A stretch of 64,000 nucleotides of DNA, from NCBI RefSeq assembly GCF_036507355.1, contig NZ_AP027877.1. One strand, given 5' to 3'. Each line of letters starts with the position of its first letter. Position 1 is the first letter of the stretch. Both the position numbers and the translations under genes were made by a program. The notes under the pieces were generated by a model, which ran no database searches, was not told the origin of the DNA, and was given only the letters and a program-made list of their open reading frames with translations. The DNA is from Escherichia coli (GTDB lineage: Bacteria > Pseudomonadota > Gammaproteobacteria > Enterobacterales > Enterobacteriaceae). Below, piece by piece: positions 42,782 to 43,793 of this stretch.

Positions 42782-42926
42782 TTAAGATTATTCTGCTGGC
42801 GGGTCGATTTATTTACGTAAATCGGTCCGCTTTCTTTTTATATATTCTTAAAAATAATTTAGCTGCTTTTCTTATTAAATAATCTCCCTACAATCGCTGC
42901 ATTAATTAAATGCAGAGGGAACGGTT

Positions 42927-43658
42927 ATGAAAAAATGGAAAGTACGTAGCGCGTTGGTGGCATTAATCGTGCTGCTGGCCGGTTGTTCCAGTAATGCGCA
43001 GTATAATAGCAGTGCATCGGGCAATGTCGGCACCGCCTGGGGTGGGGATGTGCACTCAACGGTTCAGGGCGTATCTGCTGAGCGAGCCTGGCGCGATCCG
43101 GCGGAGATGATCGTTATTAGTTATTCGACTAATGTTCCTTCCGGCTACGACCGCGTTTATAGCATTCGTATTAACGAACTGGAATATGCTATTCGCGATG
43201 GTAATTTTAATTCTCTACCTATTACGCGTGTTTATGATTCATCCAATAATGAACCACGCTATATTGTCCACGCCAGAGTCGGAATGAATTATCAATTATA
43301 TGTTCGTAATTACAGTCGTAACACCAACTACGAGATCGTTGCTACGGTTGATGGCTTGGATGTGCTGAACGGCAAGCAAGGTTCGCTGAATAACAACGGC
43401 TATATTGTGAATGCCGGAGATTCGTTAGCGATTAAAGGATTCCGCAAAGATAAACATACCGAAGCGGCTTTTCAGTTCGCCAACGTTGTTGATTCCTACG
43501 CAGCCAATTCGGCGCAAGGCGATGTGCGTAATACCGGGGTAATCGGCTTTGCCGCCTTTGAATTACAAGGCCCGGCGCAAAACGCGCTGCCACCGTGCTC
43601 TGGACAAGCCTTTCCGGCAGATAACAATGGCTATGCGCCGCCACCGTGTCGGAAATAG
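42927..43658 (+). CDS. Lipoprotein of unknown function
   Basis: 243 aa with lipobox (LLAGCSS); AT-rich upstream region. I do not recall a gene between speA and speB in K-12. Confidence 0.6.
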   Translation: MKKWKVRSALVALIVLLAGCSSNAQYNSSASGNVGTAWGGDVHSTVQGVSAERAWRDPAEMIVISYSTNVPSGYDRVYSIRINELEYAIRDGNFNSLPITRVYDSSNNEPRYIVHARVGMNYQLYVRNYSRNTNYEIVATVDGLDVLNGKQGSLNNNGYIVNAGDSLAIKGFRKDKHTEAAFQFANVVDSYAANSAQGDVRNTGVIGFAAFELQGPAQNALPPCSGQAFPADNNGYAPPPCRK

Positions 43659-43793
43659 CAACCTCGCTTGATGCCTCGCCCATTTAAGGCGATAATTAGC
43701 ACAAACTTGTGTTTCGCAAATCCAACCCTTCCTCGTCGGGCCTAACGACGCGGAAGGGTTTTTTTATATCGACTTTGTAATAGGAGTCCATCC

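What the first reader, a model, noticed from the sequence alone, without database searches (positions are those of the whole stretch)
42782..43793. Lipoprotein gene in an AT-rich insert between speA and speB
A 243-aa lipoprotein gene preceded by an AT-rich stretch separates the two polyamine-synthesis genes; I do not recall a gene here in K-12, so it looks strain-specific and could perturb speA-speB co-expression.
Basis: partly seen in the sequence, partly recalled or inferred. Interest (0 to 1): 0.35.

Follow-up and report, generated by a model that had tools for sequence, protein, structure and literature searches.

The report
Old accessory lipoprotein gene between speA and speB
The gene between speA and speB is a real, conserved outer-membrane lipoprotein gene of unknown function that about two thirds of E. 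coli genomes carry and K-12 lacks, so it is a long-standing presence/absence variant, not a strain-specific insert.

Summary
The interval 42782-43793 is exactly the speA-speB spacer. It contains a 243-aa ORF (42927-43658) with a canonical lipobox (LLAG-C20), preceded by 145 bp at 32% GC. K-12 lacks it: its spacer is 137 bp.

"Strain-specific insert" does not hold.
- 3542 of 5426 complete E. coli genomes carry the gene at this site. 1867 carry one nearly invariant short allele.
- The gene lies immediately downstream of speA in Salmonella, Klebsiella, Citrobacter, Intestinirhabdus, Phytobacter, Kosakonia and an Enterobacter sp., before speB in all but Salmonella. Only about 9 of 66 informative species representatives have it.
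- dN/dS is 0.05-0.17 and dS between genera is saturated.
- No mobility genes or bounding repeats were found, and it is not on mobilizable plasmids.

The K-12 allele is not a fresh deletion. The roughly 65 bp next to the junction are only 56% identical to the long allele.

The gene appears to be its own transcription unit. A conserved speA terminator lies upstream, there is a likely TACAAT -10 box, and speB keeps its own promoter-like site and leader hairpin. K-12 lacks the speA terminator.

The protein belongs to a large family (4200 clusters at 50% identity) with no Pfam or NCBIfam model and no PDB fold match. Its function is unknown; an outer-membrane-tethered all-beta binding module is my best guess.

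Verdict: ordinary and already annotated, with mild interest.

The parts
40805..42781 (+). speA (biosynthetic arginine decarboxylase), the left boundary gene
   Evidence: ORF list. RefSeq annotation of near-identical loci.
42798..42841 (+). speA intrinsic terminator: 15-bp hairpin 42798-42831 followed by UUUCUUUUUAU. It is absent from the K-12 short allele.
   Evidence: Terminator scan. Fold -18.1 kcal/mol, z = -3.8. The position is conserved, with differing stem sequences, in Salmonella, Citrobacter and Klebsiella. It is missing in K-12.
42842..42926 (+). AT-rich promoter and 5' leader region of the lipoprotein gene. It holds a likely -10 box TACAAT at 42889-42894, a palindrome CTGCATTAATTAAATGCAG at 42897-42915, and SD GAGGG at 42915-42919.
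   Evidence: The speA-to-ORF spacer 42782-42926, which contains this part, is 32% GC. TACAAT/TACTAT/TACACT is the best-conserved block in the four-genus alignment. The promoter assignment is inferred: the consensus scan did not call it.
42927..43658 (+). Lipoprotein gene, 243 aa. Signal peptide is codons 1-19, lipid-modified Cys20 at 42984-42986, a disordered tether at residues 21-32, an all-beta core at about residues 33-215, and a Pro-rich C-terminal tail with Cys224 and Cys241.
   Evidence: ORF, lipobox. (family, invariant residues). (AlphaFold2 model, mean pLDDT 82.8, core above 90). (dN/dS 0.05-0.17). RefSeq names it 'hypothetical protein', 'lipoprotein' or 'membrane protein'.
43668..43696 (+). 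speB promoter-like site: TTGATG, 17 nt, GATAAT
   Evidence: Promoter scan. The TTGAAC-17-GATAAT module is present upstream of speB in nearly all Enterobacteriaceae loci examined, with or without the lipoprotein gene. Its function is inferred.
43724..43767 (+). Deeply conserved hairpin (43724-43760) plus U7, 27 nt before the speB ATG. It is the likely terminator of the upstream gene and a leader element of speB.
   Evidence: Inverted repeat I1. Fold -26.4 kcal/mol, z = -4.7. In 46 sequences 99.7% of cells are paired, 3 pairs show compensatory changes, and the inner stem is invariant. No Rfam match.
43794..44714 (+). speB (agmatinase), the right boundary gene

Best explanation
The interval holds a genuine accessory cell-envelope gene that is long established at this site. 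It is not a recent insert.

Shown:
- The ORF encodes a protein with a type-II (lipoprotein) signal peptide and an invariant lipobox cysteine.
- It is under strong purifying selection.
- It belongs to a very large proteobacterial family with no curated model and no solved structural relative.
- It occupies the same speA-speB site in E. coli (65% of complete genomes) and in several other enterobacterial genera, with saturated synonymous divergence.
- The K-12-type allele is a single, nearly invariant short haplotype. The roughly 65 bp next to its junction are only 56% identical to the long allele.

Inferred:
- The protein is cleaved by signal peptidase II, acylated at Cys20 and sent to the outer membrane by Lol, because Ser rather than Asp sits at position +2.
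- A compact all-beta domain hangs there on a 12-residue tether and binds a ligand or partner protein through its invariant polar and aromatic residues (T36, W38, R53, Y66, Y122, N128, E136, D142, Y159, R173, Y191).
- The gene is transcribed on its own, from a promoter with a TACAAT -10 box, between the speA terminator and the conserved hairpin in front of speB.
- speB is driven by its own conserved promoter, so the gene takes no part in polyamine synthesis and little in speA-speB coupling.
- The two alleles are old haplotypes that persist and are reshuffled by homologous recombination in the conserved flanks. The K-12 haplotype lacks both the gene and the speA terminator.

My probabilities:
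- Real, selected lipoprotein gene: above 0.95.
- Old polymorphism rather than recent insertion or recent deletion: about 0.8.
- Independent transcription unit: about 0.7.
- Outer-membrane binding module or inhibitor-like role: about 0.3.
For: - Gene and lipobox. Cys20 is invariant in 78 sequences.
- Selection: dN/dS 0.05-0.17 against 12 orthologues.
- Family size: 4200 representative clusters at E <= 1e-3 and 3262 at E <= 1e-10.
- No family model: no Pfam, NCBIfam, PADLOC or PHROGs hit beyond signal-peptide noise.
- E. coli distribution: 3542 long and 1867 short alleles among 5426 genomes.
- Same site elsewhere: Salmonella, Klebsiella and Citrobacter, and 9 of about 66 informative species loci.
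- No recent transfer: dS between genera is saturated, and no inter-genus pair exceeds 81% aa identity.
- Short allele: identical in K-12, O8:H8 and 20AH011 and nearly so in O15:H12. The junction-adjacent segment is 56% identical to the long allele but 63-67% identical to short alleles of other genera.
- Transcription signals.
- No mobility signature. Chromosomal only.
Against: - No expression data were available, so the promoter, the terminators and the independence from speA/speB are sequence inferences.
- Localisation and biochemical role are untested. Neighbours of distant homologues are not conserved, so context gives no functional lead.
- The haplotype argument rests on a 65-nt segment in which the identity differences are modest (0.56 against 0.63-0.70).
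- In E. coli the coding flanks do not cluster by allele class, so linkage evidence for an old balanced polymorphism is lacking.
- Most enterobacterial species representatives lack the gene. I could not decide between ancestral presence with many losses and ancient gain followed by recombinational spread.
Confidence: 0.78

Rival explanations
1. Recent strain-specific horizontal insertion: foreign AT-rich DNA carrying a lipoprotein gene landed between speA and speB in this strain or a narrow lineage.
For: K-12 lacks it. The 145-bp upstream stretch is 32% GC, and the gene's GC3 is 48% against 62-65% in its neighbours. Most enterobacterial species representatives lack it. Other species hold toxin-antitoxin modules or transporter islands in the same interval, so the spot does accept DNA.
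Against: It is present in 65% of complete E. coli genomes across distant lineages. It is at the same site in at least seven other genera with saturated dS. No integrase, transposase, tRNA or bounding repeats were found. It is not on mobilizable plasmids, and phages show only partial distant homologues in rhizobial jumbo phages.
Confidence: 0.03
2. Ancestral gene with a simple, fairly recent 875-bp deletion in the lineage leading to K-12; the short allele later spread within E. coli.
For: The site is shared across genera. The short allele is a single, nearly invariant haplotype, 100% identical over 241 bp in most carriers. Both alleles share the identical hairpin and speB leader. An IS-interrupted copy exists, so loss of function is tolerated.
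Against: The roughly 65 bp between the junction and the conserved hairpin lie outside any such deletion. Yet they are only 56% identical between the two E. coli alleles, while the surrounding coding DNA differs by 0.5-4%. The K-12 segment matches the consensus of short alleles in Kluyvera and Citrobacter better than it matches the E. coli long allele.
Confidence: 0.15
3. The lipoprotein is functionally tied to polyamine metabolism, for example by sensing, binding or exporting agmatine or putrescine at the envelope, and that is why it keeps its place between speA and speB.
For: Linkage to speA/speB persists in every enterobacterial genus where the gene occurs. A 40%-identical paralogue in Trabulsiella lies two genes from a speG-like acetyltransferase.
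Against: A terminator separates the gene from speA. Most Enterobacteriaceae, and one third of E. coli, run the pathway without it. Linkage is equally explained by recombination through the highly conserved flanks.
Confidence: 0.05

Closest known systems
Bacterial outer-membrane lipoproteins processed by Lgt/LspA/Lnt and sorted by Lol (the general class, e.g. Lpp, Pal, and small envelope lipoproteins of unknown role)
   Same: N-terminal positively charged region, hydrophobic core and L-A-G-C lipobox. The Cys is invariant across the family. Ser at +2 and +3 gives no Asp inner-membrane retention signal. A short disordered tether precedes a folded domain.
   Different: The mature domain matches no named lipoprotein family. 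The NCBIfam ActS and LptM hits and the Pfam DUF7537 hit cover only the signal peptide and fall far below their cut-offs.
Stand-alone periplasmic or lipoprotein inhibitor and immunity proteins (MliC/PliC, PliG and Ivy lysozyme inhibitors; Rap1a-type T6SS immunity proteins)
   Same: Small secreted or lipid-anchored all-beta proteins encoded as single genes with patchy distribution and no conserved neighbours. The Variovorax homologue is followed by a weak Rap1a-like gene, 27.5 bits against a cut-off of 27.7.
   Different: There is no sequence or fold match to any of them. The resemblance is one of lifestyle only; this is a lead, not a membership.
K-12 speA-speB arrangement, described in the literature as co-transcribed with an additional speB promoter (Szumanski and Boyle 1990 and 1992; recalled from my own knowledge, paper not held)
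   Same: Same flanking genes, the same speB promoter-like module, and an identical leader hairpin.
   Different: K-12 has a 137-bp spacer with no gene and no speA terminator. The window has a 1012-bp spacer with a terminator, a promoter region and the lipoprotein gene.

Membership tests
Bacterial lipoprotein (signal peptidase II substrate) | N-terminal signal peptide ending in a lipobox [LVI][ASTVI][GAS]-C, with the Cys conserved | tested here: met
   MKKWKVRSALVALIVLLAG-C20. C20 is invariant in 78 aligned homologues.
Bacterial lipoprotein (signal peptidase II substrate) | Outer-membrane sorting: no Asp at position +2 (Lol avoidance rule, established knowledge for E. coli) | tested here: met
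   Residues +2 and +3 are Ser-Ser. Actual localisation is not testable with these tools.
Bacterial lipoprotein (signal peptidase II substrate) | Lipid modification and globomycin-sensitive cleavage demonstrated | not testable with these tools
   Needs palmitate labelling and globomycin treatment.
Any curated protein family (Pfam-A, NCBIfam, PADLOC, PHROGs) | Score above the family's curated cut-off over the mature domain | tested here: not met
   Best hits are DUF7537 at 12.9 bits (cut-off 31.7), ActS at 15.5 (375) and LptM at 13.4 (27.7), all over residues 1-49 only. Ten distant members gave no Pfam hit. PADLOC gave none and PHROGs only noise.
Known solved fold (PDB) | Significant structural superposition of the whole domain | tested here: not met
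Mobile genetic element / genomic island | Integrase or transposase, flanking direct or inverted repeats, or a tRNA target | tested here: not met
   There is only one gene in the interval. No bounding repeats beyond short chance matches. No tRNA adjoins it (annotations).
Mobile genetic element / genomic island | Copies on plasmids or phages, or near-identical copies in unrelated taxa | tested here: not met
   All plasmid-collection hits are non-mobilizable; most records are 0.7-4.9 Mb, and two are short fragments of 6 and 33 kb. Phages show only four partial hits at 33-36% identity in rhizobial phages. The highest inter-genus identity is 81%.
speAB polyamine operon member | Co-transcription with speA/speB and conserved linkage to spe genes outside the Enterobacteriaceae | tested here: not met
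   An intrinsic terminator lies between speA and the gene. Distant homologues are not next to spe genes. Transcription itself was not measured.

The most novel reading that the evidence does not exclude
This lipoprotein founds a large, unmodelled envelope protein family: at least 4200 clusters at 50% identity, no Pfam model, and no solved fold relative. On this reading, three features of the speA-speB locus reflect long-term balancing or frequency-dependent selection on an exposed or targeted envelope component, such as a phage or bacteriocin receptor or an inhibitor or immunity protein. The three features are the fixed-site presence/absence polymorphism in E. coli, the very divergent alleles in closely related Citrobacter and Klebsiella species, and the two distinct promoter-segment haplotypes.
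Probability: 0.12. Interest if true: 0.5.

Novelty: already known. Interest (0 to 1): 0.22.

Why it matters
It matters little for polyamine biology. speB carries its own conserved promoter and leader, and one third of E. coli and most enterobacterial species do without the gene.

There are three modest points of value.
- K-12 is the minority state at this locus. Its textbook tight speA-speB arrangement lacks the speA terminator that gene-bearing genomes have, so K-12 expression data should not be carried over to the E. coli genomes that carry the gene (65%).
- The protein is a clean example of a very widespread proteobacterial lipoprotein family with no curated model and no structural relative. 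It is a reasonable target for a DUF definition and a structure.
- The locus is a small, well-bounded case for studying how an old presence/absence polymorphism persists by recombination between conserved housekeeping flanks.

Tried and rejected
- Genomic context of distant homologues: no conserved neighbour was found. One look-up failed.
- 'Simple deletion in K-12': my first reading. I dropped it after the 80-species survey and the divergent junction segment.
- 'Elevated divergence linked to the indel': suggested by the K-12 versus window profile. I withdrew it after ten strains showed long-long, short-short and long-short distances in the flanks to be alike.
- Known RNA element in the spacers: no Rfam family matched; only REP-type naRNA4 hits flank the IS element.
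- SD-sequestering hairpin in the lipoprotein leader: not significant (z = -1.9) and not conserved between genera.
- IS-interrupted allele among complete genomes: none found.

Full report
**What is there**

The finding's coordinates are exact.
- speA ends at 42781 and speB starts at 43794, so the spacer is 1012 bp.
- The spacer holds one substantial ORF, 42927-43658 (+), of 243 aa.
- A GAGGG ribosome-binding site lies 8 nt before the ATG.
- The N-terminus MKKWKVRSALVALIVLLAG-C is a textbook lipoprotein signal peptide with lipobox LAGC.
- The 145 bp between speA and the ORF are 32% GC. The ORF is 49% GC (GC3 48%), against 55-56% (GC3 62-65%) for speA and speB.
- RefSeq annotates the same gene in near-identical genomes as 'hypothetical protein', 'lipoprotein' or 'membrane protein'.

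**Is it a real gene?**

Yes.
- Full-length homologues reach E = 1e-155 in E. coli. They run at 60-81% identity through Salmonella, Citrobacter, Klebsiella, Kluyvera, Raoultella and Intestinirhabdus. They continue at 36-45% into Variovorax, Acidovorax, Paracoccus and many metagenomic proteins, with similar matches in Burkholderia replicons.
- In a 78-sequence alignment the lipobox Cys and 27 other positions are invariant.
- Pairwise dN/dS against twelve orthologues is 0.05-0.17.

**Distribution in E. coli**

I searched 5426 complete genomes.
- 3542 (65%) contain the whole query with the gene.
- A reciprocal search with the K-12 spacer found the short form in 1867 (34%), nearly all 100% identical over 241 bp.
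- Carriers include an O157-like cattle strain, O111:NM, O145:H28, ST131 and environmental isolates.
- The short form occurs in K-12 derivatives and in O8:H8, O15:H12 and other strains.
- One genome has lost speA altogether.

**Other genera**

The gene lies directly downstream of speA in Salmonella enterica, followed there by a GntR/dehydrogenase island. In a Klebsiella group and in Citrobacter freundii it lies between speA and speB.

I then fetched the speA 3' region from 80 enterobacterial species representatives and searched each locus for the lipoprotein gene and speB.
- The gene is present, always between speA and speB, in nine: two Escherichia, Citrobacter sp. FP75, C. portucalensis, Klebsiella spallanzanii, Intestinirhabdus alba, Phytobacter ursingii, Kosakonia sp. 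S29 and Enterobacter sp. BIGb0383.
- About 55 species have a short spacer of 98-290 bp, often carrying REP-like or other small repeats.
- The rest hold something else: a HipBA module, a YhaV-type toxin, or a TRAP transporter in E. albertii. In others speB is missing from the fetched locus; in the three I inspected, loiP or tkt follows speA directly.

The interval is therefore a variable spot, and the lipoprotein gene is one recurrent occupant.

**Recent transfer?**

There is no sign of it.
- No inter-genus pair exceeds 81% amino-acid identity.
- dS between genera is saturated, above 1.4 or undefined. That is at least as high as in the flanks (0.7-2.4).
- The interval holds no integrase or transposase and no bounding repeats.
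- All plasmid-collection hits are non-mobilizable; most records are 0.7-4.9 Mb, and two are short fragments of 6 and 33 kb.
- Phage hits are four partial, 33-36% matches in rhizobial phages.

History is not cleanly vertical either.
- Closely related Citrobacter species (flank dS 0.35-0.64) carry lipoprotein alleles only 76-78% identical with saturated dS.
- The two Klebsiella alleles are 66% identical to each other, while K. spallanzanii is 80-81% identical to Citrobacter and Salmonella.

**Nature of the K-12 allele**

After my first reading was a plain deletion in K-12. The details do not fit.
- The two E. coli alleles are identical from the conserved hairpin (43724 onward) into speB.
- The roughly 65 bp between the junction and that hairpin would lie outside such a deletion. 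They are only 56% identical between the alleles, although neighbouring coding DNA differs by 0.5-4%.
- The K-12 segment resembles short alleles of Kluyvera, Citrobacter, Salmonella diarizonae and Enterobacter (63-67%) more than it resembles the E. coli long allele.
- The long allele's nearest non-Escherichia relatives are long alleles of Citrobacter FP75 and Enterobacter BIGb0383 (68-70%).
- The short allele is one haplotype, identical in three unrelated strains and slightly variant in O15:H12.
- The coding flanks do not sort by allele class. For example, O111 (long) and O8:H8 (short) differ by 0.7% in the speA 3' end.

I conclude that the alleles are old, distinct haplotypes reshuffled by recombination. 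The signal rests on a short segment. I cannot say which state is ancestral for the family.

**Transcription architecture (inferred from sequence)**

- *speA terminator.* Immediately after speA there is a 15-bp hairpin followed by a U-tract at 42798-42841 (-18.1 kcal/mol, z = -3.8). It is present at the same place, with different stem sequences, in Salmonella, Citrobacter and Klebsiella. It is absent from K-12.
- *Lipoprotein promoter.* The best-conserved block in the AT-rich stretch is TACAAT (42889-42894), a plausible -10 box about 33 nt before the ATG.
- *speB promoter-like site.* Downstream of the gene lies TTGATG-17-GATAAT at 43668-43696.
- *Leader hairpin.* A strong hairpin plus U7 follows at 43724-43767 (-26.4 kcal/mol, z = -4.7).
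- *Conservation of the speB module.* The promoter-plus-hairpin module precedes speB in almost every species examined, with or without the lipoprotein gene. Across 46 sequences the hairpin is 99.7% paired, has three pairs with compensatory changes, and has an invariant inner stem. It matches no Rfam family.

The gene thus looks like an insulated unit, and speB looks self-sufficient. The K-12 haplotype removes the barrier after speA. That agrees with my recollection that K-12 makes a speAB transcript in addition to a speB transcript; I could not check this because the paper is not held.

**The protein**

- *Curated families.* Pfam, NCBIfam, PADLOC and PHROGs give nothing beyond sub-threshold matches to the signal peptide. 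Ten distant members also have no Pfam domain.
- *Family size.* A profile search of 1.84 billion representatives found 4200 clusters at E <= 1e-3 and 3262 at E <= 1e-10. Many of these have longer N-terminal linkers.
- *Predicted structure.* AlphaFold2 with the 78-sequence alignment gives mean pLDDT 82.8 and pTM 0.80. The signal peptide and tether (residues 1-31) are disordered. The all-beta core at residues 33-215 scores 84-98 in 10-residue blocks. The Pro-rich tail is less certain.
- *Genomic context.* Neighbours of distant homologues differ in every case. They include the his operon with a weak Rap1a-like neighbour in Variovorax, a sugar ABC system, a creatininase cluster, and the ynf region in Trabulsiella. 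Context therefore offers no functional lead.
- *Best guess.* I favour an outer-membrane-anchored binding or inhibitor-type module at roughly 0.3 probability.
- *Dispensability.* The gene is absent from a third of E. coli. In addition, an allele is interrupted after a TTAG by what I recognise from memory as an IS5 end. That allele is not found among complete genomes.

**Verdict**

The feature is an already annotated, uncharacterised accessory lipoprotein gene at an old polymorphic site. It is ordinary for the purposes of a genome scan. It has modest side interest as an unmodelled family and as a reminder that K-12 is the minority state at this locus.

Noticed in passing
window 44780-46060 (transposase ORF 44978-45958, + strand): A copy of IS621 (IS110 family; RefSeq name 'IS110-like element IS621 family transposase') is inserted in the REP cluster between speB and loiP. 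It is absent from K-12 at this site. E. coli genomes that match the query have a median of 7 matching places, but 1591 of 5426 hold a near-full-length copy. Sub-threshold REP-type naRNA4 Rfam hits flank it.
   Followed up: partly
window 43668-43767 (and the equivalent position in L001, L005, L008, L020-L096): The speB upstream module is conserved across Enterobacteriaceae far better than the surrounding spacer. It consists of a promoter-like TTGAAC-17-GATAAT site followed about 25 nt later by a terminator-like hairpin plus U7-8. The hairpin is 99.7% paired with 3 compensatory pairs. A terminator-like hairpin inside the speB leader suggests attenuation. There is no Rfam match.
   Followed up: partly
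loci L019, L045, L090, L003/L004, L054, L060, L083: The speA-speB interval is a variable spot in the family. It holds a TRAP transporter in E. albertii, HipA/HTH in L045, a YhaV-type toxin in Pseudescherichia vulneris, and a GntR/dehydrogenase island in Salmonella enterica. In some Kosakonia, Enterobacter and Mangrovibacter genomes speB is missing and loiP or tkt follows speA directly.
   Followed up: partly
L105 3490-3527 (protein P0025): A lipoprotein-gene allele is interrupted at codon 167, after TTAG, by GGAAGGTGCGAACAAGTCCCTGATA, which I recognise from memory as an IS5 terminal repeat. The cluster has 448 member sequences, all from short-read assemblies, and no complete genome carries this junction.
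   Followed up: partly
L015 5001-5759 (Trabulsiella guamensis, P0068): A 40%-identical paralogue lies at a different locus, between DUF1161 and UPF0257 genes and two genes from an Acetyltransf_3 (speG-like) gene. This is a second, probably coincidental, proximity to a polyamine gene.
   Followed up: no
L011 6001-7205 (Variovorax boronicumulans): The homologue sits inside the histidine operon between hisD and hisC. It is followed by a small gene with a borderline Rap1a immunity-protein match, 27.5 bits against a cut-off of 27.7.
   Followed up: partly
L104 (E. coli HT-948): One complete genome lacks speA and the whole upstream block. speB is instead preceded by yqgA, yqgH and tRNA-Phe, which indicates a larger deletion or rearrangement ending just upstream of the speB leader.
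   Followed up: no
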